Positions 9,251 through 26,757 of a stretch of 64,000 nt of DNA are shown here, piece after piece (position 1 is the first letter of the stretch; each line of letters opens with the position of its first letter). The position numbers and the translations under genes were made by a program. The stretch spans positions 124,001 through 188,000 of the forward strand of contig CP089278.1 in NCBI GenBank assembly GCA_023920165.1, written 5' to 3'. The notes under the pieces are model-generated. The model searched no databases and was not told the DNA's origin. It saw only the letters and a list, made by a program, of their open reading frames with translations. The DNA is from Curvularia clavata (lineage: Eukaryota).

Positions 9251-10275
9251 TTATACCGTAAACTTCAACTTATTCTCCTCTGCGTACCCACGGGCGATTC
9301 TCTTCACCTCCTCATCGCCAATTTCTTCAAATATGTCAAAACCCCACCGCGATTGTACATTAAATCTTTTGTGTCTCTCCAATGCCGTCAACTCATCAAA
9401 GATGTCACTTGGCAAAGCCTTTACCTGCATGTTGGTCTTGATCCGGCTCGGTGTGACACTCTTAGGCAATACCACTGTGCCGCGTTGAATGCCCCAACTC
9501 GCGAGAAGTTGGCCGCGGTCCATACCCAATCTATGGCTCAATACACCCACCAACTCGTCATCTACAGTGCGCGGTTCACCAGTCTGATTGTTTCCCAGAG
9601 GAGAATATGCTTCGATAAGAATTCCTTTCTCCTTGCAAAAATCGAAGAGATCCGTTTGCTGAAGGTATGGGTGTGCCTCGATCTGGTTGACAGCCGGGAC
9701 AATCGTGGCCTTGGACAGTAGATCCTTGAGGCGATTGATCGTAAAGTTAGAGACCCCAATTGCCCGGACTTTGCCAGTGCTGAGTAATTTCTCCATAGCC
9801 TTATAGGTGGTAACGGGATCAATCTCTTCAAGATCGAAAGTTCCGTCCTCGCGTAAAGGAAACCATTTACCCTGCTGACCATTAAACGCACTGAGAGATG
9901 TGAGTACATATTAGGGGCTGAGACTAGGCAGCAGACATACACGGGCCAATGCATGAGAAACAGGTCAAGGTATTCAACGCCAAGATCTCGGAGCGACTGG
10001 TCAAGGGCGCCTTCAACATCTTGGGGTGCGTGCTTGGTGTTCCACAACTTTCCAGTCAGAAAGATGTCTGATCGTGGGACACCACTCCGACGAATGCCGT
10101 CCCCAACTTCTGCTTCGTTGCGATAAATGGCGGCGCAGTCGATGTGGCGATAGCCTGCTCTGAGCGCTGTTTCCACAGCCCGCTCTACCTCACCAGGCTT
10201 GGCTTGCCATGTCCCGAAGCCGACTGAAGGTATCTGCGCACCGGTGTTAAGGGTGAAGTATGTGGGTAGAGTCAT
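9251..10275 (-). CDS. Aldo-keto reductase (Gcy1/Ypr1-like)
   Basis: LNTGAQIPSVGFGTW, GYRHIDCAAIY, GKLWN, YLDLFLMHWP, intron 9940-9891, AIGVSNF, AYSPLG, LPKSVTPSRI. Confidence 0.95.
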
Positions 10276-10535: not shown

Positions 10536-10572
10536 CTTCTCATTGGCCTATCCTCCTCATCCTCCTACAACA

Positions 10573-12893
10573 ATGTCCTCGAATCGTCCCACGCAGCTGG
10601 CACCAGCGTCAAGAGATTGTATGTTGAAACCAAGTCAGAGCAATCTTTACATAAGAAGCGTTAAGGCCTGACCCAAAATAGCGCACAGCGGCAGTGTAGT
10701 ACCACAGAAGCGAAGCGCCGATGTCGCCCCTGGCAGGCAACGCGTAGTCAAAGTTACGCGAGCTTGCGATATCTGCAAAGCAAGGAAATCAAAGTGCTCG
10801 GGCGGACAGCCATGCGACAGCTGCGTTCGCCGTGGTCTGCACTGCCGCTACGAGGCTGCATACACGAGGGGAAAGACGGCCGTGCCTCGCACCTCCAGCC
10901 CAATTGCTGTCATCAGTGTTCAGGAATCGATCACTTCTTCAACTGCACCACTTATGGTTGATCAATCAAATACCGCTACTCAGCGCGCAAACGATGCGGA
11001 CCCACCATCACGGGCTTCGCCGGGCCTGGAGGTGGCTGGGCAGTTCTCTGATACCACTTCGGGTCTCTCATTTCTTCATCGAGCTTGGCGGCGCATTTCG
11101 AACAAGGAAAGCACACAAGTCGTGACTGGACAGCTTGGGTCAACGGAAGATAGCCAACTTCTGATGAGCGCTGGCGACAAACCTTTTCATCAGACTGGCC
11201 ACATGCAGATGCCATCGCCAGAACGTGGCCGTGCACTTATGGATTTGTACTTTGACGTATGCATTGCAACGTACCGACTACTACACAGGCCAACAGTTGA
11301 GACTTGGCTCATACGTGTGAATGAGAACGCTCAGCTCAATGTGCCCTTGTCCGAAGGTACGTAGTCCTTCAATTCAGTGAGGTGCCCTGTTGATCTTCAA
11401 TCAAGGTATCGGCCGCGCAAAAACAGCAGTAGTGCTTTCGGTATTGGCCGTCGCGGCCTGTCATGAAGAAAAGGCCAACGAATTCATGGCGTCGTCGCCC
11501 GAAAGCGACATGAACTCAGAGCCTCAAAGTGACCTTTATTTTGCTGAGACTGTTCGTTTGACTGCCAGTGAAACGGGCATGCCACAGCTCGAGTCAGCCC
11601 AATGTAGGCTTATCCAGGTCTTGTATCTACTCATGTCTTCTCGCTTTAATCAGGCCTGGTATATCTTTGGCCATGCTCTCCAGATTATCTCAGCCTTGGG
11701 CTTACATCGAAGAGATGATCGCAAGAGGCCTGGATCTGCACCTAAGCGTGATTATATTGACCAACAGTGTAGGAAAAGAACGTTTTGGGTAGCGTATATC
11801 TTGGACAAGTATCTAGGCGTCATCTTTGGGCGTCCTAGACATTACCACGACGACGACATCGACCAGGATTTTCCAGACGCCATCAATGACGAGAACATGT
11901 CCAAAAATGGGCCGCAGAGCCCCAGTTCAGATGACTGTCACATTGAGTCTTTGATACATCATGCGCAGCTTGCCCAGATTGCTGAACGAATCTCACGTGA
12001 AGTATATTCTATCAAGCCAGTAAGCCAGGCCCCCTAGCATCGTTCCAGTAACTTCCTCATTAAATTTGACTCAGATACCTGACCACATCCGCCTCACTGC
12101 CTCTCATCATCTCGGTACTGCCTTGCGTCAGTGGAAGTCTTCCCTGCCTCCGCTTCTAGGATCTATCAATCCTAGTAGTTTGATTCCCACTTTCCGCCGA
12201 CAAGCGATTGCCTTGAGACTTTCATATTGCCATGCGGTCATGCTGGCTCATCGACCTTTTCTTCTCTCGAATACCTCACGCAGCGACGAGGCTATCCGAT
12301 CTCTTGCAAAAGACAGCCTTACTGAGTGCATCGCAGCTGCTCGCTCAGTTCTGGATGCGGTTGACCGCATGGCACGTGAAGGCCGTATGTTTCACGCCTT
12401 TTGGTGGACGCATTACGTCTGCTTTTGCGCCCTAGTCGTAGTATACGTATCGACTATACAGGATACATCCCGAGAGTCGATATCTGCATGTGATCGGCAA
12501 GCGATATTAGACCAAGCAGAAAACTGCCTCCAACACTTAGCGCGCGCTACAGCATCAAATTCACCATCACGGAGATACAGCATCATTCTCCAAGAGTTGC
12601 GTGCTGAAGCCAAGCGAAAGACTGCCGTACCAACGCATGACCATGTCTTAACTTCGTCAGCGACAGCGGTCTCTGGCAATCCAACTACTCTGCATCCGGA
12701 GTTTTTTGGTGAGTCTAATCCGTCCCAACAAACTCTGCAGATGTGGCAACCGCTTTTTGGCAGCCCAATGGATATGACAACACCAGGCTTGCAAGACTTT
12801 TTGGACCACTGGCAGACGACCGACTGGCTTGATCTTGACTCTTCAGCATTTGGTCATTTCACTGGAGGGCAGGAGGAAAGTTTTCTTGGATAA
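10573..12893 (+). CDS. Zn2Cys6 transcription factor with fungal-specific TF (middle homology) domain
   Basis: After the first intron (~10619-10681): ACDICKARKSKCSGGQPCDSCVRRGLHC. Later exons carry LGLHR...RKRTFWVAYILDKYLGVIFGRP and LAHRPFLL. Confidence 0.9.
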
Positions 12894-12980: not shown

Positions 12981-14824
12981 CTACAGTGTATATCTAAAAA
13001 GTGGCGACCTATCTCCCATGTCCAAGAGTTCCTCATCCGTATAACGTGCACGGATCTCGTCTTCACCGAGTTTTGACTTCTTCGAGTTCCCCCACTTGTA
13101 TGATAGTTCCAGCAGAAATGCGACGACGAAACCACTGGCGCCAAAGGCGAGCGACAATCCGAATCCCGTATAGTACTTGGGCTTCTCGCTGTCGAGATAC
13201 ATGTAGCTTCCAATAACACCACCAATATTGCCAACGCATATATTAAAAGCAACGCCGATAGCTCGTCGAGAAGATGGGGCAAGGTTGTTTGCTGCCCAAG
13301 AGCTTCCTGCAGGTTGGACTGGGTAGATGCCCATGCATGTTAGTATGATTGCGAAGAATGCTGGTCCGAGGTTGCCACCAAGATCGCCGTGGAAGGAGAT
13401 TATGACTGAGTAGCCAATGAAGATGAGTGCTAAGGGAATCGCTACGAACGGTAAGCGCCAGAAGAAGCGATCCGAGAGTTTTGCGAAGAAGATGGAGCTT
13501 AGCGCTCCAGCAACGTAAGGCGGCACTGTCATCAATTGCGCATTTGTGTTGCTGAATCCCATGCCCTTGGTTATAGTAGGCAATGTAAACTTGGTCCCTT
13601 TGTGCCAGTTAGCACACATAATATCTTTGCGGAAGTGGATGCATACCGTATGAGCAAGCAGAAATACAAAGCAGAATGTATGCCTGCATGTAAAGGCGCC
13701 AGTTGCACAGCACCATTTTTAGATCATTCCAGTTGAACCTTTCCTCATTCTCCTCGCCAGATTTCCCACCATCTTTGATGAATCGTTGAAGCTCGAGGAA
13801 GCGGATTTCGTCGGGTTTCAACCACCGTCCACTCAGTGCAGGAGAGTCGATCAGAAAGAAAAAGCATGATACGCCGAGGCCGACCGTGACAATTCCCTCA
13901 AGCAGGAAAATCCATCTCCAGCTATCTCACAGTTAGCATTTCGTCATCCAATGCAAGGTTGAATACCAGTCTATCATTTTGAGAATGTATTGATTCAGGA
14001 CTTACCCTTCGTATCCACCTATGCCATCCATCTTAGCGATAGCTGCCGCGAGTAGACCACTGAATGCTCCAGACAATGCGGACGCACAATAAAAGTACGA
14101 AATCCTTGTAGCAAGGTCTTTTGGCATATACCAGTAGGAACAGAGGTATACAGCACCTGGGAAGAATCCAGCTCTAAGATCGATTAAGAAACATTCGCAG
14201 TACGCCGTTGCTGCTGACTTACTCGAAAACACCAAGAAGGATCCTTGTTGCCAATAGTCCGGCGAAGTTCTTGACCACACCCATCATTGTCATAATGATA
14301 CCCCAGCAAACTATAAGAATCCCAAGGTAGTACGATGGACGTTTGAACTTCTTAAGTAACATGTTTGATGGAACCTCCAGTAAGATGTAAGGCACGAAGA
14401 AGACGGACAGGACGACGTTCCATTCGACACCATTCAGCCCAAGGTCGGTTACCATCCCCTCTATCTTTGCATTCTGTTCAAAGTCAGTCATAATGTTTGA
14501 ACAGGTCCAACGTTATGCGTACACCAATGTTTGCTCGATCTATATGGGAGATCAAGTAGAGCACAGCTAGCATGGGTACAAGACGAATGTCCACCTGGTT
14601 AAATCAGTACAATGTGATATTCGGCGTGATCGCGGGAACTTTACCTTGCGAATTACGGTTTCCCGCTGTGCTTCAGAGTAGTTGGTGTAAAACTCAGCAT
14701 CCTCAGGTGTAAGTCCTAAGACGTGGAAATTGTCGATCTTGACGATTTGAGGTGTCTTGGAAGGATGAGTGGAATTGGCTGTGTCATCAACGCATTGGAC
14801 CTCATTCTTATCAATAGATACCAT
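12981..14824 (-). CDS. MFS transporter, anion:cation symporter (DAL5/TNA1) family
   Basis: Multi-exon. IDRANIG, EVPSNMLLKKF, RILLGVFEAGFFPGAVYLCSYWY, GYEGWRWIFLLEG, QLMTVPPY, C-terminal DMGDRSPLFRYTL. Confidence 0.92.
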
Positions 14825-15149
14825 GGTGTTGCGTGCACTGAAAAGGTTTTAGTACGATATATGGAGTTGATACAACGACTCCGTCTCAAGAGGGGTGATG
14901 CCTCCTCCAAAATCAGTCATCTTCCATCGCTTTATACACTGTTCTTGGCTAGTTGAATCGAGCAAAAGAACGCCCAATTTGCGGAGAAACGTACAATCCC
15001 GACCATCTGTTTCCTGGAGAAAGCCAAGTGCGGGGAAATGTTGTTCATGCCAATCCTAATTCAGACATAGTGGGCTGATGTTGTGCGCTAAGGGCTTCCG
15101 AGGGCATCGGAACCTTTTCCGTACAAATCAAACGTAGATCCGGCTTTGG

Positions 15150-15191: not shown

Positions 15192-15294
15192 TCTATTCAC
15201 TTGCGGCGCTGGAAGTACTTGTTCTACAACATTTAACGCATATTGCGGCCACTTCTTTTGTTTTCACTGCTGCCTCTAGAACTCTATCACAGCC

Positions 15295-18200
15295 ATGGCA
15301 CCTGCACAGATTGCTATTGCTGCTTCAATGCCGCCGTCGCGGCCACAGAGCACATGTTTGGACGTTCACAAAACCACACCACCGCAGGATGAGTCTACGA
15401 TACAGACTGTAGACGCTCTTATCCGACACCGCGCGCGTCAACAACCAAACATCACCATTGTCTCATATCCAAAAACTGGAGTCAATTTCGTCGATTACTC
15501 CATGCAACAATTGGACGTTTTCGCCTTCAGGGTGGCCCGACATTATCAAGCATTGATTCCGACGAGAAAAAGCTCGGCAGAAAAGCCTACAACGGTAGCC
15601 CTACTCGGACCAAGCAATTTTGATTATTTAGTTACAATGCTGGCGTTGACCAAACTTGGCCATACGGTGCTATTCCTTTCGACCAGGATTTCTCAAGCTG
15701 CTGTGAACTCCTTGATAGAGACGACAGGTGCTAAATATCTGTTAGCAGACTCGCGACATGCGCGCACAGCTTCTGAAGCTCAAAACCACCTACCTGGCTT
15801 GAACATCGGTGAGATCGCAAGGTCAGATGTTTACGAATTTCCCATCGAAGTTTATGCGGATACCCGCCTAGACTATCAACTCGATCACTCAATCGAATCC
15901 ATGAACAACATCTACATCATCCATTCCAGTGGCAAGTCGAATGAAAGAATTAGCATTACTGTTGCTAATACCAGTTAGGCTCTACCGGACTACCTAAGCC
16001 TATCTACCAGCCTCAAAAAAGCGCAATTGCAAATTATGCTATCAGCATGAACATGAAGGCTTTCATCACGTTACCACTCTATCACAATCATGGTATCTGC
16101 AATTTCTTTCGCGCTATCTACAGTGGAAAATCCATCCACATCTACAATGCCGACCTCCCACTCACTCAACCGCATCTCGCAGCTATCTTGAAGCAGCATG
16201 ACTTTGGGATCTTTTACGGCGTTCCTTATGCTCTTAAGCTTCTTGCAGAGACGGATGAGGGTATTCACCTTTTGAAGCAACTCAAGATCGTCATGTACGG
16301 GGGAAGCGCTTGCCCAGATGCTCTAGGCAATTTGTTAGTAGAAAACGGTATCCACCTCGTGGGCCACTACGGAGCGTAGGTAGTATCGCGACTCATGATC
16401 GTCATATGGGCTGACATGATGAAGAACAGAGGTGGGTCAGCTGATGACTTCTTTCCGGCCCTCGGGGGATACAGCATGGAACTATGTTCGCGAAACCCCA
16501 AAGCTCTCTCCATTCCTCCGATGGCGCCCTTGCGGAAACAATTTGTACGAATGCATAGTCCTACCAGGCTGGCCAGCAAAAGTTGCTTCTAACCTTCCAG
16601 ACGGAAGTTACGCTACCAAAGATCTTTTCGAGCCGCATCCGACCATTGAAAAAGCCTGGAAATACATTGCCCGAGTCGATGATACAATCACATTATTGAA
16701 CGGAGAGAAGTTCAATCCAGTCATGATGGAAGGAACCATTCGCTCGCATCGTGCCGTCACCGAAACTGTCATTTTTGGTTCCAACCGACCCTACCTAGGC
16801 ATGTTGATCGTACCCAAGATTGAGGGAATGTCGCAGTCAGAGCTTGTTGATGAGGTATGGCCTCTTGTCGAAGCAGCAAACAACATAGCAGAAGCATATG
16901 CGAGAATATCCAGGGACATGGTTCGAGTCCTACCATATGGCTGTTCATTTCCCCGTACGGACAAGGGTAGTGTGATTCGACAAGCATTTTACAAGGAGTT
17001 TGCGAACGAAATCGAAGATGCGTACGATGCAGCAGCAACAAAACTTGGAAGTCTCAAAATATACACTGCCTCGGAACTTGAGGACCATATTCGCTCCATT
17101 CTGCACAAGTATCTCCCTTCAGTGCAAGACGTGGATTGCACAACTGACCTTTTCTCATTGGGCGTCGATTCTCTCCAGTCTCTCCAAATCCGAATGGAGA
17201 TCTTGAAAACCGTCAATATCGGAGGCAACAAACTCGGCCAAAATGTCGTTTTTGAATATCCTTCCATCAAATCACTTAGTGCTCATCTTCATCACCTCCG
17301 TACTGGCGAAGAAGAGCAGCAGTCGACTCCGGCTGAACGGATGGAAGACCTTGTCTCCCGATACACTTCATTTGAACGAGTTCAGAAACCGCGACGTATT
17401 GCACTCACTGGTGCTACTGGATCTCTCGGTGCCCACATCCTAGCACAATTAGTTGAGCGTCCAGACGTCGAGACAGTGCATTGCCTGGTGCGCGCTAAGA
17501 CCAATAGCGACGCTATGCAACGTGTTCGGAGATCTCTATTAGATCGAAAGGTTTACCATGAGCTTTCTATATCAGCGCGCAGGAAGATCAGTGCACTGGC
17601 AACGGACCTTTCTGACTCCCACCTGGGTCTCGACAATGCAACATATACGAAAGTCGCTTCAACTCTTACTGGTGTTATTCATTGTGCTTGGAGTGTCAAT
17701 TTCAACAAAAGCTTAACTTCTTTTGAGAAGGACTGTATCGCAGGCGTACGCTACCTTATTGATTTGTGCCTTGCTACGCCTTCACAGATACCTGCTACCT
17801 TTGATTTCTGCTCATCAGTGAGCACTGTCGCACGCTGTCCCGACTTTCATACACCCGAACGACTAGCAGAGTATGGCTGGGCTCAAGAAATGGGATATGC
17901 CCAGGGTAAATGTGTTGCAGAACACATCTGCATGGCTGCTGCAGAGAAGACGGGTATCAATGCTCGGGTGCTACGTGTTGGCCAGATTGTAGCTGACACA
18001 GTACATGGTGTATGGAATGCTACCGAGGCCATTCCTCTTATAATGCAATCTGCGCTTACTATTGGCGCACTACCTAAACTGCAGGAGTCGCCAAGTTGGA
18101 CACCCGTCGACGTGGTTGCCAAAGCAGTGACGGAAGTCTCACTCAGCAATGCGCATTCTGTGATTGCGAATGTCACGAATGCAAAGACCTTTTCTTGGAC

Positions 18201-19044
18201 GGACCAACTCCTTCCCGCTTTACATGATGCGGGCCTTGACTTCGAAGAGATTGAGCCTAAGGAGTGGGTGCAGAAGCTTCGTGCGTCTGATCCAGATGCA
18301 ATAGCCAATCCTTCTATCAAGCTCGTTGATTTCTTTGCATCAAAGTATGAAAAGGACAGCTTCGGCCCTTCGAGAACTTACGAAACAAAAACCGCTCGAT
18401 TGTATTCTCCTTCATTGGATAATGCTCCTGCGCTCAACACAGACTTTGTTAAAACGTTTGTCCGACGATTTCAAGCTACAGCATGGAGTCCAGCTAGTTC
18501 GAATGTCCAACCAAAGAAGCAGCTGGTTGTCTTCATCGGACCTTGTGGGAGCGGCAAATCAACCATAGCAAGACACGTGAGCCGCCACGCCACAGCTTCG
18601 TTTATCGAGGGTGACGATCTTCATACAGTAGATGCCGTAACCACCATGGCTGCGGGAACACCACTCGATGACGGCACACGAATACAGTGGCTTAGTCGAA
18701 TCAAGCAAAGAGTCTTAGATGCCTTCAACACGCTCGGCTGTGATCGTGTCTTCATCTCTTGCTCCGCGCTGAAGAAGTCTTATCGAGACCAACTCCGAGA
18801 CTTCCCTGATAATGACATCAAGGTCACGTTCTTGAACCTTCAGGTCGAGCAAGAGGAACTTGTACGGCGAATGAAAGCACGAAAAGATCATTATATGAAA
18901 CATGACATGGTAGAGAATCAGGTTGCTCTCTGGGAAAGGCCACATAAGACGGAAACAGATGTACTTCCTGTTGACGCTGGGCAAACTGCAGAGGCAGTTT
19001 TAGAAGAGGTGAAATGGCTTCTATACGAATATATGCGCATGTAG
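15295..19044 (+). CDS. NRPS-like carboxylic acid reductase (A-T-R) with C-terminal gluconokinase-like P-loop domain, ~1217 aa
   Basis: Exons 15295-15931, 15979-16375, 16425-19044. A domain: HSSGSTGLPKP, YGATE, TKDLF, RVDD, PRTDKG. T domain: LGVDSL. R domain: TGATGSLG, GYAQGK. Kinase: GPCGSGKST, EGDDLH, CSALKKSYRDQLR, RKDHYM. Confidence 0.92.
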
Positions 19045-19717
19045 TTAGGCCTTGGTGCTAGCTATACGTTGGAGAAATAAGATGCAGATATAATGACACT
19101 CCGTTCAAGACCCTGAGTGGTAGCCAACAAATAAATAATCATGGCCGCGTGAGGTAGATGAATTGCTAGTCGGGACTAATTCACACCTCTTCGGGCTAAA
19201 ACAAAGGTTTGAGATAGTTACCGGAGACTCAGATTACATGAATTGAATGTAAGATTACTTGCGATACCCTCCTCTCTTAGCGTGAAGGAGATAGTTGATG
19301 GTCATCCTACCCTATCCCACTGATCATTAAGGAAGCGCTTCCCTGTCTCTTGGTACCCTAGTACATAGTTGACCACAATTTAACTGCCAGAATACCATCG
19401 CTTTATTGGTTCTTCAGTGGTTCAGTTCTGCCGCAAATCCCATCTCAGCATGGCGCCATTTGGTGTAAGCTCTCAGCATTTATTCTGTTTTTGCGACAGC
19501 AGGAAGCACCGCGGTCCGTAATGCTGCATCTGGCGCATTGCTACTTGCAGGACCAGTAACTGATTAGGTATGCACATATCAAAGACCTAGCTAGACCTGC
19601 TTCATCACCATCCCGCTGTTCCTTGCCTGCCTACCCTAATGCCAATTTCAATGCCAATTTCAATCCCAATCCTAAATCTCATCCTAATACCGACCTCTAT
19701 GCTCATTTTGAATTGCT

Positions 19718-22532
19718 CTATCTGTAATTGATTGTAAATGAAGGCGATTCTGCGACATCCCATTGCTTCGCATCACTTGCGTTGCCAAAGATATGGAGTG
19801 CTGAGACCCGAAATCTGTAACTACCCGGTGCTACCCATGTCTTATCGGCCAACTGACCATTCCATGTATATGTAACCAATCCACGTGGACTCTCGTCGGA
19901 TGAAGAACCGGGTAACTCGATTCCTTGACCGAGGTTTGCTGTGTAGTTGCCGCTTGTCAAGTTGCCGGTTGACAGGATCTCGACTTTGAGCAGTGGGGAC
20001 CCAAAATACATGTCGATAGCAGCAACTGGAAGGTCATCCTTAATGTTCTTGATGTCCGTGATGTTGAATTGCGGGAACAGGAAAGTCGAGTTACCACCAC
20101 TGACGGGAGCGTTGTCAGGGTCAGATGACCGCGACACATATGTCATATTCAAGACAGTATGAGCATTTAGATCTCCTAGGATACCTTGATATGGGAGAGA
20201 CAGCTTTTCGCCGTTTGTGCCATTGATTTGAATGTAGCCACCGTATACTGGAAGTCGAGCAGCATCTACTGATGGCGGCGTAACCTTGACAGCGACTTTG
20301 GATTTACCACCTGCAGGAATAGTGACCTTGTACTCGCTTAGATGTACTGTTGCGAAAGAATTGTCGAGCTTAAGTCCAGGGAACGGATCTGGCTTCTTAC
20401 TGTCAGAGAATGTGTAAGCGGTGGCAGCACCAATCACGTCCAACTCATAGGTAACGGCTTCATGGCCAGTGTTGGAAATGGTGAAGCTTTTGTCGGTGAG
20501 TCGAACTGTGTCATTGAAAGCCAGATTCGAATCGCTCAAAACAGTATTCGCATAAGCAGCATCAAATGCCTGGGCTATGCCAGCTCCTTGTTGTGCGATT
20601 GGCGCCAGGAAAGGGCTGATGGTGCCATCAGGATCTGCCTGTAGTACGGGCTTAGCTGTAGCAGCGAGCACATTGCGAAGCTCTGAAGGGTCAGTGGACT
20701 TCCGCACGTTTGATACAAGCGCATAGATGGCGGCAGTGAGTGGGGCGGCCATAGAGGTACCGGACAAGACAGCGTAAGAGCCCAACGCAACAGGCCAGGT
20801 TGACAGTATGGACCCGCCAGGAGTACCAAACGTAGGACTGATATTGGCTTCGAAGGAAGGTCCCCAAGATGTGTAGTAGCTCAAGAATCCACCCGTGAGG
20901 TTGTTAGGATTCTCTTCCACTGACATTGGACTGGTGTAGGGGTTGCCCATATCTAATGTAACAACTTTTCCAGCAGCCAGATCTCTGACCCACGTCGCGC
21001 CTAACGTGCCAGTGACTAAGCCAATAGCCGTTAGATTTTGAACGTCCACTGCTATGAGGATCTTTCCAGGAACATTGTTGTACAACATGACGTACTTGGC
21101 CCCTCGCGCCACTGCGTTCTCCGCTTTAGTCTGCCAAGCGCAGGTGCCTCGACGGATAAGAACAACTTTGTTCGATAGATCGGGCGTGTTGTCAGGGAAA
21201 GGATCGCATCCTTGATCGGTTTGGTTTGTGTCGAATGATGGAGTCCAAATCGGTAAATTGACGTCTGTCCAGTTGTCTGGGGAGCCGTTGGCATACTCGA
21301 AGCTCTGTTTCGAGCCACCGGACACTGTATAGTAGCCCCTGACCGATAAAACAGGCGTTTGAGTGTTGTCGTATGAAGCAATAGCAGCAACACCCTTCCC
21401 CCCTGCTGGGGTGCTTTCAACGAACAGTCCTTGATCACCCGAATTACCAGCAGAAGCGATGAAACTGACGCCTCGGGCCACGATGCGGGCGACAACAACG
21501 TTGCCGACTTCCTCAGACCATCCGCTAGCAGCTCCAAGCGAGGCACTAATGATATTAGCACCTTCTTGTTGGGCGCGCAAGAAGGCGGCTATCAAGACAT
21601 CGTTCTCAGTAAAACCTGAGCATCCAAATACGCGATAAGATGCTAGTTTGACGCCCTGGAACATATTAGAAAGCTGTCAGAATAATTTTTCGACAAGTAC
21701 TGACAGGAGCAGCTCCGGTAAAGCCTAACTTGTTCGGCTGAGCAGCAACGATACCAGCTACATGCGTTCCATGTCCCTGTCATGAGTCAGTAATTATGGA
21801 CAAAATGAGGTCCCTGGAAGATTTTACGTACAGCACAATCCATTGGGTCGTTGTCAGGCACCGGATAATTGGTGCCATTGTATTTGTCACCAACGAAATC
21901 ATGACCACCAACAACCAGGCAACCAGGTCCAAAGCACCCGCCCAGAGCTGGGTGGGTATAGTCGATCTATCATCAGATCAGTACCGTTGCAAAGTAGGAA
22001 ACGATGACACATACACCAGTATCAATGATCGCAATTTTCACTCCTTTACCAGTTATGCCCTTGGCTCGTAACTTGTCGACTTGGGTCATGATATGAGGCG
22101 AGAATGTGTCGTTGCTGTAGGACCGCTTGAACATTTGGTCGGATTCTAGTCCTGCTGGCGCGCGCGGTGCAACCCAGTCGATGAAAGGATCGGGTGCAGG
22201 AATCCTTTTCTTTGGCCAGACGTTTTTTATGGCTGGCGACGCTAACAACTGGGCAATATGTTCACCGGCAGGTTTAATGTTGTCAAACTCGACGGTAGCG
22301 CCCTTGAACAATTCGAAGTCCAAATCCATCGTTTTCTTTACACCGGGAATATCCAATGCAGATGTGAGTTGCTGAAATAATTTAGTAAAGTATATTGGCA
22401 CTCTCTTTTCGTAGTTTTTCTTACCGAGGCATCCTCGTATTCAACGATAAAAGCTCTTGGAACAACCTGTAGCGGCTGGGATCCAGCTACAACACCAAGC
22501 AACAGTGATAGGAGATAGGATTTCCAAAACAT
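19718..22532 (-). CDS. Secreted subtilisin-like serine protease (S8) with PA and Fn3-like domains
   Basis: Signal peptide, IIDTG/IDYTHPALGG, GHGTHVAGI, AGNSG, PA motif LIRRGTC, SGTSMAAP; several introns. Confidence 0.93.
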
Positions 22533-24041
22533 GGTGGCGATTTTGAATAAAACGAGTGACTGATACAGAAAAGAGAAAGCAAACGCACACGTAGTGTGTG
22601 CAGATCAAGAGAGTGTCGCTGAGTGAAGACTGAGGCGCGTATACAATGGCAAATGCGTATTTATGTATGATACACGAGATTGCCCCTTTCCAAGACTTAC
22701 TGCCTTGCTTCAAATAACCTTTCGGAAGAACATGTTCTAGCGCGTTGCATGTCCAGCATTGTAAAGTCCCACTATAACCGAACGGGTATCTTCTGTCAGC
22801 ATGCACGCTGACATAGCGTCACCGTCCTCGGTCCTTTGACATCCCATGTCAACTAGTAACTTTAACGTGATATCAAGGACGGTAGGTAACGGAACAGAAA
22901 TTAATCTCAATGCAGATCTGCACCAATTCTCCGAACTCCCATGGGCCAGAATAATCCCTGCCGTGATCCCGCGGCTATTGCTCATAAGCGCTAGCCCGAA
23001 GCGCAAGCTGCTTACTGCAACATCACATTCTCTCCTGTCAGGAGCCTTCTCACATAGATAGACTTCCATGCAGCCCAAGGTATCTCTCATAATACTCGGC
23101 CCGTTTCCCTTGAAATGAAAGCCGGTCATCCGCACCTTCCTAATGTATAGAAAGGGCAATTCTGTGAGTATTAGCATGATCAAGAACATCCCCAAGCCCT
23201 GTGCATATTCAGGAGGAGTTTTCGAATTTTGCGCGGCGTTCTTCCCATCGATATTATCGTTTTCCTCAGATGCGATTTCTCTGCACCATGAAACCGCACA
23301 ATCGATAGTCTTTTGAATCCGGATCAATTATACTCATCACCTAGCCCGGTCTAATCAACTCCAATAGTAGTAGCCTTGGGCATCGTTCTCTATACGAAGA
23401 TAAGCGTGTTCCGTAATTATGACATGGGCTTTTTTCGGGTGCCCTGATCGCCTTGCCATAATGTGAGGCTCTTCTGACTTTTGGATAGCATCTGCAGAAG
23501 CACTTTGTGGATGCTTGGGTTTGAGAAATACGCAAAAGCTTAGCCAGCAGTGTAGTCCTTTATAGAGATTAAAAGCAAAATGAGACCCTTCTTCAGTATT
23601 CCACGATATGAGCTCTACTAACTTTGTGCTAGTGGCTGTTACATGGGGCTAAGCTTTCTTTAGTGGACTGTAGTATGTAAGTTCGCTTGCCCGACCTTGC
23701 ACTAATTGATCCCGTAAAAGTCGTATTGTGAGACAGAAACTGATAATAGAATCGCGATGCTATGAGGCTATTGGTTTGCACGTCGCGACTTGCGACTTCA
23801 TTATAGCCAATAGAGAAGCTGCTAGAATTGAGAAGCTCGCTCAGAGGTTACGGCAATAGTGCAGGTCGACTTTCACAGTTCATGCGCCTTCTTCGTGTCT
23901 CATCCGTTGATATTCGACCGAGATCCCTGGTGCATAGCCTTACTGTTTATTTGCCCTTCAACCATGAGCGATCTAGACCGGGATCATCCCCCTCACCTGC
24001 CTGATGCCCGCCACCTTGAAAGATTCCTAAATGCTCAGACA

Positions 24042-25434
24042 CTACTTCTCTTTCTCCATCCCATTCTCACCTGACTCTTGAATCGTGCAGCTAACTTTGG
24101 TTTGGGTCCACCTGGCCATGCATATGAAGAGAGCAGCAGAAATCGTCAGTGTTCCCGCCCATATCTGTGCCTTGAGAAAGCCTCCATTATCGCTTTCGAT
24201 CAAGGCACCCGCTGTTGGTGGCCCCGCCAATGATGCAAATGCTAGTATAGAACACACCATTCCGAACCGAACGCCTAGCTTGCTTGGATCCGTGGTCAAC
24301 GATGCGAGTCCACTAACAAACACTGTGGGAAGTACTGTTCATCAGCTAATACTCAAAGCGCAATCTTGAGGGCTCAATTTCTGGAAATGCCCCTAGCTTA
24401 AGGGGTGCGAGAGATGAATCGGATGGTAGGGGTGTACACTGACTGCCTTGAGTTGCGCCGGTAGCTAGTCCGTAGAATACCGCATAAACGTATAGACTGC
24501 CAACGCTACGAATTGGAATCCAGACAAACAACATGATGGCGAGAAAAACCGTTGCAAAGATTAGCGTGGGAAGTGATCCGAAATACCTATCCGCAACCAG
24601 GCCGAGGAATGGTCGAACTGGTATTCCCACAGCATTGATGATTACAAGCATGTTGACTGCTTCCTCCGGAGATAGGCCGACAATTGAAGTCGCAAATGTG
24701 TTGATGAAGAAAAAACAGAAATATAGTGTGAGGAATAGCAGAAACACCCCAATCGTGAAAAGAATGTAGGTAGGTTCCGAGAACGCCTTCCATTCCACGA
24801 GTGCGCCTGCCTTGCGCGGCGGAAGACGTGGTCGAAGGAGAAGGTTAATGACGATTGCGCATGCTAGAGCAATACAGCCCTGCACCTGGACTGCGCGAGG
24901 GAATCCGATAGTTGGTTGAAGATGTTGGATGATCAAAGGAAACAAGATGCTGCCGGTCCCGCTCCCTGAAGCAGCTAATCCCAGGGCCATTGCTTTCCTT
25001 TCCTTCCAGTAGGAGCCGATCACAGCCACGGCAGGCATATACAATGCGCCCATTCCAAGACCAGTGCAAAGACCCTGCGCAAGGAATATCTGCCAGTACT
25101 CGGTCGCTAGGCTAGTCATGAAAGTTCCGAACACGATCAGAGTAGAGCCTAGTAGAGTTGTGTGCTGAACGTAGCCAGCATCAGCGGATCGACCGGAAAA
25201 TGTCCCGACGAAGAACGTCAAGAATACTTGTAAGGATCCAATCCAGGCTATTTGAGATTCCGGTAATGACAATGTGGTCGTATAATGAAGCTGGTAGACG
25301 CCAAATGAAGCAGAATATCCCCAGGTTAGTGCGTTGATAAGATGGCCAGCGAGGATCTGGAGCCAAGCCCGCAGCCCACCGTCGGGAGGTGGGCCTACTT
25401 CCTCCTGAGGTAGTGATAAGATTCTAGATAGCAT
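24042..25434 (-). CDS. MFS monocarboxylate-porter family (Mch-like) transporter
   Basis: PPDGGLRAW, WGYSASFGVYQ, WIGSLQ, YWQIFLAQG, 3' intron ~24443-24323, GVRFGM, GPPTAGAL. A short upstream exon from ATG 25572 is possible. Confidence 0.9.
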
Positions 25435-26757
25435 GATGCCGATCCTTGTATCAGGACAAAGAGATGATGGGACTTTCGTAAGAACCCGTTTGAATTCTCA
25501 AAGATTCTCAGGAATTTATCTTAACCACTACCCATTCACCCCAGTAGATTCTTGAACTTCTGTAGACGTCATAGGACTCAGAGGTGGGGCTGAGGCATCG
25601 TTGGTTGAGCCATTTTGGTTATTGTCGTTCCAGTTTTAGCCGTGTTAAGATGCTGACTGCATAGGAGGGAAAAGCAATAACAAGCCGCAACGTGGATTAC
25701 CCGGCCCCAAGTTCTCCCTAGAAGTATGATAACTCCCCAAAGAAATACTCTAGATATATTTTACAAGCTCATGACTGGAGTAACAGTGGCTGATGCTATC
25801 AGCTAACTCATGGGGATAGATTCTTGAGTGGTGATGTCGCTACCCAGCTGTACTGGAGCCGTGCCGCAATGCTAGGATCCTCGGTACTTAGTCGCAATCA
25901 AGACTAGCTCTACGCCCTATGCACATCGAAGGGCATAATACACCTTCCCAATAGCATCCACCGGGTTTTAGCACCATCACACTTCGTCATATCTTTCTAC
26001 TATTGAAGTTCGCGGGTTTTCAGAAGAATGACCTCACTATTTAAAACATCCATCAGGAATTGCTGACCCACATGCAATAGGGTGTTTAGAGAGGGCCGAG
26101 CTAGATTTGTTATATTTCAGGATTTCGTTTCCTTGCTTTTGCACCTATTGCTCGCCTTGCGTGATAAATCGGCAAAGGTTTACGTCTCTACTGGTACAGC
26201 CAATTCGGGTGTTGAGAGATGAATGCACGACTACTTGGCCCAATTAGCGCATGATGTTTCAATTGATGAGCCCATGATCAAGTAATGGTTTCTCTTTTCC
26301 CGGTAAGCTGAGCAACAACGTGACTAGGCCAGCAGGTTACTCGAATATTGCGTTGCGAAAATGTAAAACCAATGTTGATCACACACAAGATCATCAGTAT
26401 CACTAGTTTGTTCGAAGCATGACTAGGTTTTGAGATGAGGGCTCGTCCTGGTTGAGATAGCCTCTTTCATCTTAGAGAAGGTTGTACCTTCTTTCTGTAA
26501 GCTAGCACACAGCACGTATTTTCTTCGAAATAGAAATTGCTAACTAGTTTCATTTAATCTTGCGAATGTAGTCTAATAATGCGGTCGAACCGCGGATAAC
26601 AAGCGATTCTGAATAGGTATCTTGAAAAGATCTAATAACTCCCATGCAGACTAAATAGCTTATATGAAACAGAAAATTGGTACAATCAGTGCGCTCTAGT
26701 CTATAAAACGAACCAAAGACGAAATCGTGCTTTCCAGCCTTTTACATTGCCTTTACC

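What the first reader, a model, noticed from the sequence alone, without database searches (positions are those of the whole stretch)
15295..19044. NRPS-like carboxylic acid reductase fused to a gluconokinase-like kinase (A-T-R-K)
Seen: one 2620-nt exon carries the end of the A domain, the T domain (GVDSL), the reductase domain, and then, with no stop or intron, a ~175 aa domain (18514-19044) with GPCGSGKST, EGDDLH, GTPLDD..R..WL, CSALKKSYRD and R..HYM. Established: A-T-R proteins are fungal carboxylic acid reductases, and those latter motifs define the GntK/thermoresistant gluconokinase family. A-T-R-R extensions (glycine betaine reductase) are characterised; I know of no characterised A-T-R-kinase. 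Inference: one polypeptide couples acid-to-aldehyde reduction with phosphorylation of a sugar acid or its product, implying an undescribed catabolic, salvage or biosynthetic route.
Basis: partly seen in the sequence, partly recalled or inferred. Interest (0 to 1): 0.87.

Follow-up and report, generated by a model that had tools for sequence, protein, structure and literature searches.

The report
Acid reductase fused to gluconate kinase
A fungal gene really does encode one protein that joins an ATP-driven acid-to-aldehyde reductase to a gluconate-type kinase, and its conserved neighbours and a relative's expression suggest it helps fungi consume sugar diacids such as glucaric or galactaric acid, a pathway whose enzymes are still unknown.

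Summary
Window 15295-19044 (+) is a three-exon gene for a 1217-aa A-T-R-K protein. Spliced transcript contigs from two studies cover it in one piece, across the reductase-kinase junction and the stop codon. The C-terminal domain is a GntK/IdnK-type gluconokinase: TIGR01313 scores 158.7 bits against a cut-off of 113.75, and the fold matches E. coli GntK at TM 0.83-0.86. All catalytic motifs of A, T, R and K are invariant in 74 homologs.

The fusion is widespread in Pezizomycotina: 167 of 190 full-length homologs carry K. Two genome papers list it as 'A-T-R-Kinase' or 'A-T-R-Ki' without a function.

The gene sits in a conserved four-gene set: aldose-reductase-type AKR, Zn2Cys6 factor, ACS-type organic-anion MFS transporter, and A-T-R-K.

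The A. niger family member is the fourth most induced gene on galactaric acid, at 3064-fold. Its neighbouring AKR rises 87-fold.

My best reading is inferred. A-T-R reduces one carboxyl of an aldaric acid. The AKR completes the reduction to an aldonic acid, D-gluconate in the case of D-glucarate. K then phosphorylates that same carbon to give 6-phosphogluconate. No biochemistry exists, so the substrate is unproven.

The parts
15208..19196 (+). Minimum extent of the mRNA (5'UTR, three exons, 3'UTR)
   Evidence: Spliced transcript contigs of runs X1 (15208-19154) and X2 (15247-19196), from two studies.
15295..15931 (+). Exon 1: start codon and N-terminal half of the adenylation (A) domain, up to the first base of the Gly codon in the A3 motif
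   Evidence: AMP-binding hit at E 2.9e-9. Exon end fixed by the RNA joint.
15932..15978 (+). Intron 1, 47 nt, GC-AG (gcaagt...ttag)
   Evidence: Both RNA contigs skip 47 nt here, with 3 nt of placement ambiguity. Only the GC-AG placement keeps the frame and restores HSSGSTGLPK.
15979..16375 (+). Exon 2: A-domain core from motif A3 (SSGSTGLPK) through LPLYHNHG to motif A5 (HYGATE, split by intron 2)
   Evidence: AMP-binding hit at E 1.3e-15.
16376..16424 (+). Intron 2, 49 nt, GT-AG
   Evidence: Joint with no ambiguity in X1, X2 and X9.
16425..19044 (+). Exon 3 (2620 nt, stop codon included): end of A, then T, R and K without interruption
16678..17034 (+). A-domain C-terminal subdomain (AMP-binding_C_3), including the invariant A10-type TDKG lysine
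   Evidence: PF23562 at 146 bits. T179, D180, K181 and G182 are invariant in 74 sequences.
17089..17289 (+). Thiolation (carrier) domain. The phosphopantetheine-attachment Ser of GVDSL lies at 17170-17172.
   Evidence: PF00550. G247 and S250 are invariant.
17398..18474 (+). Thioester reductase (R) domain with the TGATGSLGAH NADPH motif and the Y492/K496 catalytic pair (exon-3 frame numbering)
   Evidence: PF07993 at 150 bits. TIGR01746 at 194 bits, below its 213.35 cut-off. The fold matches terminal R domains 4U7W (TMt 0.81) and the N. crassa CAR R domain 8AEP. The motifs are invariant.
18529..19011 (+). GntK/IdnK-type gluconokinase (K) domain, with the P-loop GPCGSGKST at 18538-18564
   Evidence: TIGR01313 at 158.7 bits against a 113.75 cut-off. 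1KNQ at E 4e-25. Fold TMt 0.83-0.86 to 1KO5 and 1KNQ. The P-loop, E.D..H, W, CSAL..YR and R...R..HYM residues are invariant.
15108..15121 (.). Palindromic CGG-N8-CCG site in the 470-nt divergent promoter between the MFS gene and the A-T-R-K gene. It is a candidate Zn2Cys6 binding site and only a lead.
   Evidence: A CGG-N8-CCG site also occurs in the equivalent intergenic region of L001, L002 and L003 (4 of 4). The spacing was chosen post hoc. The pattern is not enriched over the whole window (6 found, 4.64 expected).
12981..14824 (-). Divergently transcribed MFS transporter of the ACS (anion:cation symporter, TC 2.A.1.14) type, multi-exon, coordinates approximate
   Evidence: MFS_1. Four exon pieces hit TIGR00893 collinearly at model positions 19-96, 97-143, 146-234 and 237-383. 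The bits sum to about 123, below the 395 cut-off. Orthologous exons lie divergently upstream of the A-T-R(K) gene in L001, L002 and L003.
10570..12893 (+). Zn2Cys6 fungal transcription factor (start approximate)
   Evidence: Zn_clus and Fungal_trans hits. A collinear ortholog is present in L003. A fungal transcription factor sits in the A. niger cluster.
9251..10275 (-). Aldo/keto reductase of the aldose/aldehyde-reductase type, two exons
   Evidence: PF00248. It is 80% (89/111) and 65% (133/204) identical to the AKR part of the A. egyptiacus AKR-A-T-R merged model P0153. It is 78-85% identical to the AKR in L003. The best solved relatives are aldehyde and aldose reductases.

Best explanation
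SHOWN:
- The gene is real and expressed as a single mRNA.
- It encodes a four-domain protein: adenylation, carrier, thioester reductase and gluconokinase-family kinase.
- All catalytic motifs of all four domains are intact.
- The family is widespread in Pezizomycotina.
- The gene belongs to a conserved set of four genes: an aldose-reductase-type AKR, a Zn2Cys6 regulator, an ACS-type organic-anion MFS transporter, and the A-T-R-K gene.
- The A. niger member and its neighbouring AKR are strongly induced on galactaric acid.

INFERRED MECHANISM:
1. The transporter imports an aldaric (sugar di-carboxylic) acid.
2. The A domain adenylates one carboxyl and loads it as a thioester on the carrier domain.
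3. The R domain reduces the thioester with NADPH to the aldehyde, a uronic acid.
4. The clustered AKR reduces the aldehyde to the primary alcohol, giving an aldonic acid. Alternatively the R domain does this itself in a four-electron reaction.
5. The fused kinase phosphorylates that newly made hydroxymethyl group.

For D-glucarate the sequence would be D-glucarate, then L-guluronate, then D-gluconate, then 6-phosphogluconate, which enters the pentose phosphate pathway. This would explain the fusion: the carbon that A-T-R reduces is the carbon a gluconokinase phosphorylates. Kinase-less relatives would serve substrates whose aldonic acid product (for example galactonate) needs no GntK-type kinase.
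For: Gene, transcript and domains.

Functional constraint on K:
- The P-loop G706/G711/K712, E729, D731, H734, W756, C780-L783, Y787, R788, R792, R816, R820 and H823-M825 are invariant in 74 sequences spanning three fungal classes.
- Between two strains, 8 of 11 substitutions in K are synonymous.

Conserved cluster:
- The window has AKR(-), TF(+), MFS(-), A-T-R-K(+).
- Metagenome locus L003 has the same order and orientation. L001 and L002 have the divergent MFS.
- A. niger chr_202 has A-T-R-K, AKR, MFS and TF within about 14 kb (PMC5153877 supplement 1). The same cluster is NRRL3_02851-02858 in PMC12368960.
- A merged AKR-A-T-R gene model exists in A. egyptiacus.

Expression in A. niger ATCC 1015 (JGI 1082594 = ASPNIDRAFT_170633, matched through the protein cluster):
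- FPKM goes 0.016, then 50.5, then 60.4 at 0, 5 and 18 h on galactaric acid. That is 3064-fold, the fourth row of a sheet whose rows read run in descending order of induction.
- The neighbouring AKR 1082229 goes 0.25, then 22.2, then 44.6, or 87.5-fold.
- In the other series of the same table, 1082594 stays near baseline in 'Ga' and rises modestly in 'Gl05h'.

Precedent: the two top-induced genes in that experiment are another A-T-R-type gene (39114) and another AKR (1090836). Both are required for galactarate consumption, and their biochemistry is unknown (PMC5153877).

Behaviour unlike a secondary-metabolite cluster: over-expressing the cluster's TF to 4019 TPM left NRRL3_02852 at 0.07 TPM. 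The gene stays at 0-0.21 TPM in all 43 over-expression strains. This fits an inducer-dependent catabolic regulon.

Accessory enzymes fit sugar acids: the AKR resembles aldehyde and aldose reductases, and the transporter resembles the ACS family model TIGR00893.

Established chemistry, not from a call: gluconokinase (EC 2.7.1.12) phosphorylates C6-OH of D-gluconate, and reducing the C6 carboxyl of D-glucarate to CH2OH gives D-gluconate.
Against: - No enzyme assay exists for any member, and the A-domain substrate was not predicted here.
- The induction data are for galactarate, not glucarate. They come from an A. niger family member that is only 46% identical to the window over the exon-3 region.
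- Strict orthology is not established. In the A-T-R tree, Pleosporales group with Sordariomycetes, while Capnodiales and Dothideales group with Eurotiales. That could reflect old paralogy or transfer.
- In A. niger the genes proven necessary for galactarate use are 39114, 1090836 and 1121140, not this gene. This gene was never deleted.
- The baseline sample came from rich pre-culture, so part of the induction could be a medium-shift effect. The 'Ga' and 'Gl' column labels that argue against this are not defined in the parts I read.
- The kinase has been lost or is absent in 23 of 190 full-length homologs, with at least 11 changes on the tree. It is therefore dispensable for whatever A-T-R does.
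- In the proposed order the fused R and K steps are separated by a free AKR, unless R performs a four-electron reduction.
- For galactarate the analogous product, galactonate 6-phosphate, has no known fungal fate (recalled).
Confidence: 0.45

Rival explanations
1. The components are the same but the order or substrate differs. In one version the kinase acts first (D-gluconate to 6-phosphogluconate) and A-T-R then reduces the C1 carboxyl to give glucose 6-phosphate. In another version A-T-R reduces an aldonic or uronic acid such as gluconate or galactonate to the aldose, the AKR takes it to the alditol, and the kinase handles a side stream of gluconate.
For: The domain facts are the same as for the best explanation. 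In a fusion, consecutive steps are the more usual arrangement. The transporter's best family model is named for D-galactonate, an aldonic acid. There is modest induction in the 'Gl05h' column.
Against: Gluconate already enters metabolism through gluconokinase alone, so spending ATP and NADPH to remake glucose 6-phosphate has no obvious benefit (inference). The strongest known inducer of a family member is an aldaric acid. The AKR has no role in the kinase-first version.
Confidence: 0.2
2. It is the backbone enzyme of a cryptic secondary-metabolite cluster, as genome-mining pipelines label it, and makes an aldehyde building block. The kinase would provide a phosphorylated intermediate or self-protection.
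For: Sources annotate family members as 'NRPS-like protein biosynthetic cluster' or 'secondary metabolism biosynthetic enzyme'. The family is listed among biosynthetic clusters in P. subalpina and A. niger. A P450 and a carboxylesterase lie further downstream in the window.
Against: The conserved neighbours are only an AKR, a transporter and a regulator. The P450 and esterase are about 10 kb away beyond unrelated genes and are not conserved in L003. Over-expressing the TF did not switch the cluster on. The family is broadly and syntenically conserved across classes, which is unusual for a secondary-metabolite cluster. A family member is induced by a carbon source.
Confidence: 0.1
3. The kinase domain is not a sugar-acid kinase in this context. 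It would be a nucleotide-binding or regulatory module, for example sensing gluconate or ATP, or a decaying remnant.
For: K has been lost many times, with at least 11 changes on the tree. L003 ends precisely at the R/K boundary. The domain reaches only the family-level model, not the E. coli GntK or IdnK equivalog cut-offs: 119 bits against 265 and 103 against 304.
Against: Every motif that aligns with the E. coli GntK P-loop and conserved substrate-side motifs is invariant in 74 sequences. The strain differences in K are mostly synonymous. The predicted fold is confident and GntK-like.
Confidence: 0.07
4. The fusion is an artefact: a merged gene model, read-through, or an assembly error joining two genes.
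For: Some databases split or merge the gene. A. niger CBS 513.88 has a 296-aa 'gluconokinase' piece, An01g14850, and there are merged 1536-1570-aa models.
Against: The window has one uninterrupted frame. Spliced RNA contigs from two studies cross the junction without a break. 167 of 190 full-length homologs carry the same fusion.
Confidence: 0.01

Closest known systems
Fungal NRPS-like carboxylic acid reductases (A-T-R), e.g. Neurospora crassa CAR (R domain 8AEP), A. terreus ATEG_03630, Lys2
   Same: Same A-T-R order. ANL adenylation motifs, a carrier Ser and a terminal SDR thioester reductase are all present. The expected chemistry is ATP- and NADPH-dependent reduction of a carboxylate to an aldehyde.
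   Different: It carries an extra C-terminal P-loop kinase. Its genomic context is sugar-acid-like rather than aryl-acid or amino-acid. Its substrate is unknown.
ATRR, the fungal glycine betaine reductase (A-T-R1-R2; Hai, Huang and Tang, bioRxiv 10.1101/559534, passages read)
   Same: It is an A-T-R enzyme extended by a fourth catalytic domain that acts on the product of the R domain. It works in primary metabolism, not secondary, and is widely conserved in fungi.
   Different: The fourth domain there is a YdfG-like short-chain reductase. Here it is a gluconokinase-family kinase, and the second reduction would fall to a separate clustered AKR.
GntK/IdnK gluconokinases (E. coli GntK, 1KNQ/1KO5; fungal stand-alone gluconokinases)
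   Same: The family HMM is passed, and the P-loop and conserved motifs are present. Identity to the E. coli GntK chain is 34% in the structural alignment, with TMt 0.83-0.86. The nearest named stand-alone relatives are fungal gluconokinases at about 40% identity.
   Different: It is fused behind a reductase. It scores below the E. coli equivalog cut-offs. Its substrate is untested.
A. niger galactaric-acid catabolism genes 39114 (A-T-R-type) and 1090836 (AKR) (Kuivanen et al. 2016, PMC5153877)
   Same: The logic is the same: an adenylate-forming reductase paired with an aldo/keto reductase. Both pairs are induced thousands-fold or hundreds-fold on galactaric acid in the same experiment.
   Different: 39114 is a different gene: chr_701, 3246 nt, too short to hold the kinase. 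1090836 is unlinked on chr_502. I could not obtain the 39114 sequence, so its relationship to this family is untested. It is not among the 120 best relatives of the A. granulosus member.
Orthologous or family members already tabulated: P. subalpina PAC_02202 ('A-T-R-Kinase') and A. niger NRRL3_02852 ('A-T-R-Ki')
   Same: The architecture is the same. For A. niger the neighbours are also the same: AKR NRRL3_02854, MFS NRRL3_02856 and TF NRRL3_02857.
   Different: They are only listed as domain strings in tables of biosynthetic genes. No function, substrate or product is proposed.
Bacterial D-glucarate/galactarate pathway (dehydratase route, gud/gar genes)
   Same: It takes the same proposed substrates, and its transporter belongs to the same ACS family as GudP and DgoT (family assignment recalled; TIGR00893 hit).
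   Different: Bacteria dehydrate the aldarate. The route proposed here reduces it with ATP and NADPH, and I found no description of such a route. Searches for 'glucarate reductase', 'galactarate reductase', 'aldaric acid reductase' and 'guluronate reductase' returned no paper using those terms. The 11 listed papers matched the two catabolism phrases, and the titles and abstracts shown concern bacteria.

Membership tests
NRPS-like carboxylic acid reductase (A-T-R adenylate-forming reductase) | ANL-type adenylation domain with core motifs (A3 SSGSTGLPK, A5 YGATE, A8 hinge region, A10 lysine) | tested here: met
   AMP-binding and AMP-binding_C_3 hits. The motifs can be read. T2/E3 (the TE of A5, split by intron 2) and T179, D180, K181, G182 are invariant; the A3 residues are nearly invariant (at least 90%) in 74 sequences. 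The motif names are recalled.
NRPS-like carboxylic acid reductase (A-T-R adenylate-forming reductase) | Carrier (thiolation) domain with the phosphopantetheine-attachment serine | tested here: met
   PP-binding at E 9.5e-9. The Ser of GVDSL (S250) is invariant.
NRPS-like carboxylic acid reductase (A-T-R adenylate-forming reductase) | Terminal SDR-type thioester reductase with an NADPH-binding glycine motif and a Tyr/Lys catalytic pair | tested here: met
   NAD_binding_4 at 150 bits. T329-G336, Y492 and K496 are invariant. Foldseek gives 4U7W at TMt 0.81 and the N. crassa CAR R domain 8AEP at E 1.8e-23. One caveat: TIGR01746 scores 194 bits, under its 213.35 cut-off.
NRPS-like carboxylic acid reductase (A-T-R adenylate-forming reductase) | ATP- and NADPH-dependent reduction of a carboxylic acid to an aldehyde | not testable with these tools
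   This needs a holo-enzyme assay.
GntK/IdnK gluconokinase family (TIGR01313) | Score above the curated family cut-off | tested here: met
   158.7 bits for the domain alone and 154.6 bits in the 873-aa frame, against a 113.75 cut-off.
GntK/IdnK gluconokinase family (TIGR01313) | P-loop and the family's conserved motifs, retained under selection | tested here: met
   Alignment to 1KNQ. The residues are invariant in 74 sequences. 8 of 11 strain differences in K are synonymous.
GntK/IdnK gluconokinase family (TIGR01313) | GntK fold | tested here: met
   AlphaFold model at mean pLDDT 88.9. 1KO5 and 1KNQ match at TMt 0.83 and 0.86 with 34% identity.
GntK/IdnK gluconokinase family (TIGR01313) | Equivalog-level identity with E. 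coli GntK or IdnK | tested here: not met
   NF008583 scores 119 bits against 265. NF007336 scores 103 bits against 304. Membership is at family level only.
GntK/IdnK gluconokinase family (TIGR01313) | Phosphorylation of D-gluconate at C6 | not testable with these tools
   This needs an enzyme assay.
ATRR glycine betaine reductase (A-T-R1-R2) | A second, YdfG-like SDR reductase domain at the C-terminus | tested here: not met
   The C-terminal domain is a P-loop kinase, not an SDR. The gene works like ATRR only in the sense of 'A-T-R plus a follow-up domain'.
A. niger galactaric-acid regulon (Kuivanen 2016) | Strong, specific induction of the family member on galactaric acid | tested here: met
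   1082594 is induced 3064-fold and ranks fourth. The neighbouring AKR is induced 87.5-fold. This is data from A. niger, not from the window's organism.
A. niger galactaric-acid regulon (Kuivanen 2016) | Identity with the genes shown by deletion to be required (39114, 1090836, 1121140) | tested here: not met
   The A. niger family member is a different locus, chr_202 3700736-3704529. 39114 lies on chr_701.
Secondary-metabolite biosynthetic gene cluster | Conserved tailoring enzymes and a product, with activation by the cluster's regulator | tested here: inconclusive
   The conserved neighbours are only AKR, MFS and TF. TF over-expression did not activate the A. niger cluster. No product is known.

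The most novel reading that the evidence does not exclude
This protein and its three conserved neighbours would be the missing enzymology of fungal aldaric-acid catabolism. The route would be ATP- and NADPH-driven and reductive: aldarate to uronate to aldonate to 6-phospho-aldonate. No organism is known to use it, since bacteria dehydrate aldarates instead. The protein would be the first carboxylic acid reductase known to act on a sugar diacid, and its fused kinase would phosphorylate the very carbon it has just reduced. The kinase-less paralog or ortholog class, including A. niger 39114, would be the galactarate-specific version of the same idea.
Probability: 0.4. Interest if true: 0.85.

Novelty: new variant of a known kind. 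Interest (0 to 1): 0.72.

Why it matters
Fungi consume galactaric (mucic) acid. In 2016 three A. niger genes were shown to be needed for this, including an A-T-R-type gene and an AKR. The reactions were not identified, and a crude-extract assay with NAD(P)(H) failed (PMC5153877). I found no later paper that resolves this.

The A-T-R-K family has three useful properties. It has the same A-T-R plus AKR logic. It is co-induced in that same experiment. It carries a kinase whose family specificity (gluconate, C6-OH) points to what the product of the reduction should be. Together these turn the open question into a direct test: supply ATP, Mg, NADPH, a phosphopantetheinyl transferase and an aldaric acid.

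If the reading is right, three things follow.
- A new catabolic entry into the pentose phosphate pathway would be defined.
- The substrate range of carboxylic acid reductases, which are of biocatalytic interest, would extend to sugar acids.
- Strain engineering for glucaric and galactaric acid production would gain knock-out targets.

The finding also warns that many fungal 'NRPS-like biosynthetic clusters' flagged by genome mining may be catabolic.

Tried and rejected
- The window's own genome is not held. I therefore could not look for a stand-alone gluconokinase or paralogs in this organism.
- Earlier notes of this scan returned nothing by place, sequence or words.
- These literature searches returned nothing relevant: NRPS-like + gluconokinase (1 irrelevant paper); adenylate-forming reductase + kinase domain (0); carboxylic acid reductase + gluconokinase (0); locus tags of Bipolaris and Curvularia orthologs (0); A. 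niger, A. terreus and T. virens locus tags (only the two table papers); names for an aldarate reductase (none used; the 11 listed papers matched 'glucarate/glucaric acid catabolism' and look bacterial from their titles and abstracts).
- I could not obtain the A. niger 39114 sequence. Its relationship to this family is left open.
- The metagenome scan gave only 7 loci. L005-L007 are distant A-T-R genes at 29-31% identity and were not followed.
- The MFS exon had no solved-structure relative. The protein-atlas look-up said only 'MFS'.
- DUF7703, which is merged onto the N-terminus of two Aspergillus models, has no counterpart in the window or in L001-L007. It is not part of the conserved set.
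- The CGGA-N7-CCG pattern is not enriched across the whole window: 6 found, 4.64 expected. The promoter site stays a lead only.
- Run X13 (metatranscriptome) gave only three short pieces, and run X9 covered part of the gene. I draw no conclusion on habitat or expression level.
- The supplement's column labels 'Ga' and 'Gl' were not defined in the parts I read. I take them to be the authors' D-galacturonate and D-glucuronate series, which is an inference.
- I ran no complex prediction, because I make no claim of protein-protein binding.

Full report
**The observation**

Window 16423-19044 (+) is one 873-codon open frame.

Two short upstream frames hold the rest of an adenylation domain. Reading the DNA gives this model:
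- exon 1, 15295-15931
- a 47-nt GC-AG intron, 15932-15978
- exon 2, 15979-16375
- a 49-nt GT-AG intron, 16376-16424
- exon 3, 16425-19044

The total is 3654 nt, or 1217 aa.

The model is confirmed by RNA. In coded runs X1 and X2, from two studies, single contigs of 3851 and 3854 nt cover 15208-19154 and 15247-19196. They skip exactly 47 and 49 nt at those places and have no indels. They are unbroken across the reductase-kinase junction and the stop codon. Run X9, a third study, also splices intron 2.

The deposited protein, P0001, is 100% identical over both searched regions (residues 690-873 and 1-690) of the exon-3 frame and is named as a hypothetical protein of Curvularia clavata. It is one residue shorter because its model uses a 50-nt GT-AG intron. 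That choice deletes the Gly of the A3 motif. The RNA supports the GC-AG version.

**The domains**

Pfam finds AMP-binding, AMP-binding_C_3, PP-binding and NAD_binding_4, followed by AAA_33/AAA_18/SKI.

NCBIfam places the last 160 residues in TIGR01313, gluconokinase of the GntK/IdnK type, at 158.7 bits against a cut-off of 113.75. It scores below the E. coli equivalog cut-offs. The best solved sequence relative is E. coli gluconate kinase 1KNQ at E 4e-25.

An AlphaFold model of the 873-aa exon-3 product, built on a 74-sequence alignment, has mean pLDDT 88.9 and pTM 0.68. By Foldseek the reductase part matches terminal thioester reductases:
- 4U7W at TMt 0.81
- the Neurospora crassa CAR R domain 8AEP
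- CAR PCP-R didomains

The last domain matches gluconate kinase 1KO5 and 1KNQ at TMt 0.83-0.86 and 34% identity.

In the 74-sequence alignment, which spans Dothideomycetes, Sordariomycetes and Eurotiomycetes, these residues are invariant:
- the A10-type TDKG
- the carrier Ser
- the NADPH glycine motif
- the reductase Tyr/Lys pair
- the kinase P-loop, plus the E.D..H, W, CSAL..YR and R...R..HYM motifs

Between the window and the strain behind the RNA contigs, 16 of 25 coding differences are synonymous. In the kinase the figure is 8 of 11. Both halves are therefore under purifying selection. The kinase is not a decaying appendage in this lineage.

**Distribution**

A search restricted to the kinase region, among proteins of 480-1528 aa, found 56 proteins at E <= 1e-5. 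Nearly all of them have the full A-T-R-K domain set.

Searches with the A-T-R part of the window protein, and with an Aspergillus member, each listed 120 best hits. These cover:
- Pleosporales
- Colletotrichum, Verticillium, Trichoderma, Fusarium and Xylariales
- many Aspergillus and Penicillium species, including A. niger, A. terreus ATEG_06998, A. flavus and P. chrysogenum
- Aureobasidium, Hortaea, Elsinoe and Capronia

A Leotiomycete example comes from the literature.

The three searches returned 251 proteins. I dropped 61 that were shorter than 980 aa, which are fragments or exon-only gene calls. Of the remaining 190, 167 have a kinase hit and 23 have none.

I built a FastTree of the A-T-R part with the kinase columns removed. 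On it, the presence or absence of the kinase needs at least 11 changes. The kinase-less proteins sit inside kinase-bearing clades:
- Boeremia, within Didymellaceae
- a Xylariales group of 5
- a Mycosphaerellales group of 9
- Talaromyces atroroseus, and others

The tree is unrooted, so gain and loss cannot be told apart. Some kinase-less entries may be truncated gene models.

One case is checked at the DNA level. Metagenome locus L003 is 69% identical. Its gene ends right at the reductase/kinase boundary, with an oxysterol-binding-protein gene following on the other strand. It also has an in-frame stop at 11066-11068.

The nearest named stand-alone relatives of the kinase domain are fungal gluconokinases at about 40% identity.

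One caution applies. In the tree, Pleosporales group with Sordariomycetes, while Capnodiales and Dothideales group with Eurotiales. One-to-one orthology across classes is therefore not established.

**Neighbourhood**

Upstream of the gene in the window lie three genes:
- An aldo/keto reductase at 9251-10275 (-).
- A Zn2Cys6 transcription factor at about 10570-12893 (+).
- A multi-exon MFS transporter at 12981-14824 (-), transcribed divergently from the A-T-R-K gene.

The four MFS exon pieces each hit TIGR00893, the ACS anion:cation symporter model named for the D-galactonate transporter. The hits are collinear, but their summed score of about 123 bits is far below the 395-bit cut-off.

The AKR's best solved relatives are aldehyde and aldose reductases.

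The same four genes recur elsewhere:
- L003 has them in the same order and orientation. Identities are AKR 78-85%, MFS 73-87% and TF 45-67%.
- L001 and L002, which reach only a little upstream, both show the divergent MFS exon.
- In A. niger ATCC 1015 the family member is JGI 1082594, the same as ASPNIDRAFT_170633, linked through the 90% protein cluster. It lies at chr_202 3700736-3704529. An AKR (1082229), an MFS (1207097) and a fungal TF (1207101) lie within the next 10 kb (PMC5153877 supplement 1, parts 49 and 63).
- PMC12368960 defines the same cluster as NRRL3_02851-02858. Its backbone is NRRL3_02852, 'A-T-R-Ki', with TF NRRL3_02857.
- A merged AKR-A-T-R gene model in A. egyptiacus, P0153, shows adjacency there too. 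Its AKR part is 80% and 65% identical to the two window AKR exons.

Downstream genes in the window (subtilase, second MFS, P450, carboxylesterase) are not shared with L003.

**Expression of a family member**

Kuivanen et al. (PMC5153877) shifted A. niger to galactaric acid and sequenced RNA at 0, 5 and 18 h. I read the abstract listing, passages, section 5 and parts of supplement 1. The FPKM sheet appears sorted by fold induction: the rows I read run in descending order. The top four rows are:

| Rank | Gene | Type | Induction |
|---|---|---|---|
| 1 | 39114 | A-T-R-type | 8701-fold |
| 2 | 1090836 | AKR | 8031-fold |
| 3 | 1183117 | isocitrate/isopropylmalate-dehydrogenase-like | 7428-fold |
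| 4 | 1082594 | the A-T-R-K gene | 3064-fold |

For 1082594 the FPKM values are 0.016, then 50.5, then 60.4. Its neighbouring AKR 1082229 rises 87.5-fold, the MFS 2.2-fold and the TF 1.6-fold.

In the rlog sheet, 1082594 stays at 3.6-4.6 in the three 'Ga' columns. It reaches 7.0 in 'Gl05h' and 11.4-11.8 in 'Ma05h/18h'. 'Ma' matches the galactaric (mucic) acid time points. The other two labels are not defined in what I read.

The authors deleted seven highly expressed genes and found 39114, 1090836 and 1121140 necessary. They did not test 1082594. A yeast crude-extract assay of 39114 with NAD(P)(H) showed nothing. My inference is that an A-T-R enzyme would also have needed ATP and phosphopantetheinylation. 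The passages I read do not say whether ATP or a phosphopantetheinyl transferase was supplied.

In PMC12368960 (passages and supplement s03), over-expressing NRRL3_02857 to 4019 TPM left NRRL3_02852 at 0.07 TPM and the AKR at 0.28 TPM. The gene stays at 0-0.21 TPM in all 43 over-expression strains. This is the behaviour of an inducer-dependent regulon.

**Interpretation**

What is shown is a conserved, transcribed, four-domain enzyme with intact catalytic machinery. It is embedded in a transporter, regulator and AKR set, and one family member belongs to the galactaric-acid response.

What I infer is a reductive route for aldaric acids:
1. Import by the ACS-type transporter.
2. Adenylation and thioesterification of one carboxyl.
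3. NADPH reduction to the uronic acid.
4. Reduction of the aldehyde by the AKR, or by the R domain itself.
5. Phosphorylation of the new hydroxymethyl by the gluconokinase domain.

On step 4: the closest structural match, the myxalamid R domain, is, as I recall, a four-electron reductase.

For D-glucarate this gives L-guluronate, then D-gluconate, then 6-phosphogluconate. The appeal of this scheme is that the reduced carbon is exactly the one a gluconokinase phosphorylates (established: EC 2.7.1.12). That gives the fusion a rationale. It also explains why versions for galactarate, whose product is galactonate, could do without the kinase.

I put 0.45 on this scheme. The rivals are:

| Rival | Confidence |
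|---|---|
| Other orders or substrates with the same parts | 0.2 |
| A cryptic secondary-metabolite role | 0.1 |
| A non-catalytic kinase domain | 0.07 |
| An artefact | 0.01 |

The main weaknesses are these:
- There is no biochemistry.
- The inducer known is galactarate, not glucarate, and only in a relative that is 46% identical over the exon-3 region.
- The gene has not been tested by deletion.
- The kinase has been lost repeatedly.
- The relationship to 39114 is unresolved.

**Comparison with what is known, and novelty**

The protein is a member of the A-T-R carboxylic-acid-reductase kind and, at family level, of the GntK/IdnK kinases. It is not an ATRR, because its fourth domain is not an SDR.

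The architecture has been printed twice as a domain string. It was overlooked once: ATEG_06998 is listed as plain 'A-T-R'. No function has been proposed in anything I could search.

Subscription-journal papers, such as the basidiomycete adenylate-forming reductase survey that I recall but did not see, are outside the library and could bear on this.

I classify the finding as a new variant of a known kind. It leads to a concrete, testable proposal for an unsolved fungal pathway.

Noticed in passing
window 15929-15978: The deposited gene model (P0001, 1216 aa) uses a 50-nt GT-AG intron 1 and so loses the Gly of the A3 motif (HSS-STGLPK). RNA contigs from two studies skip 47 nt, which fits a GC-AG intron and gives HSSGSTGLPK and 1217 aa.
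   Followed up: yes
window 15108-15121; L001, L002 and L003 intergenic regions: A palindromic CGG-N8-CCG site lies in the divergent MFS/A-T-R-K promoter. A CGG-N8-CCG site also occurs in the equivalent region of all three related loci. It could be the binding site of the cluster's Zn2Cys6 factor. The spacing was chosen post hoc, and the pattern is not enriched across the whole window.
   Followed up: partly
L003 8642-12064: An environmental relative at 69% identity keeps the AKR/TF/MFS/A-T-R synteny but has no kinase domain. Its frame ends at the R/K boundary and also carries an in-frame stop at 11066-11068. This may be a pseudogene or a sequencing error.
   Followed up: partly
A. niger chr_302 994471-998093 (PMC5153877 supplement 1, FPKM sheet): Two adjacent genes are among the seven most induced at 5 h on galactaric acid and fall back by 18 h. 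One is isocitrate/isopropylmalate-dehydrogenase-like (1183117, 7428-fold). The other is a sugar transporter (1084943, 1625-fold). Neither was among the seven genes the authors deleted.
   Followed up: no
Proteins P0263, P0279 (Aspergillus brasiliensis, A. welwitschiae): Merged gene models add an N-terminal DUF7703 protein to the A-T-R-K enzyme. This probably corresponds (inferred from position only) to the small gene (1171939) between A-T-R-K and the AKR in A. niger. No counterpart exists in the window.
   Followed up: yes
A-T-R tree: The class-level topology is incongruent with the species tree: Pleosporales group with Sordariomycetes, and Capnodiales and Dothideales group with Eurotiales. 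Curvularia kusanoi P0032 sits with Didymellaceae rather than with Curvularia and Bipolaris. This hints at old paralogs or horizontal transfer of the gene or cluster.
   Followed up: no
window 18514-19041 versus the rest of the CDS: Strain-to-strain substitutions are denser in the kinase region (11 in about 530 nt) than in the rest of the coding sequence (14 in about 3100 nt). They are mostly synonymous.
   Followed up: partly
window 2772-8611 and 19721-33369: Other genes in the window are an S28 serine carboxypeptidase, a second Zn-cluster factor, an RTA1-like membrane protein, a PA-domain subtilase, a second MFS, a PAH-repeat protein, a carboxylesterase and a cytochrome P450. None is shared with L003 in the stretch examined.
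   Followed up: partly
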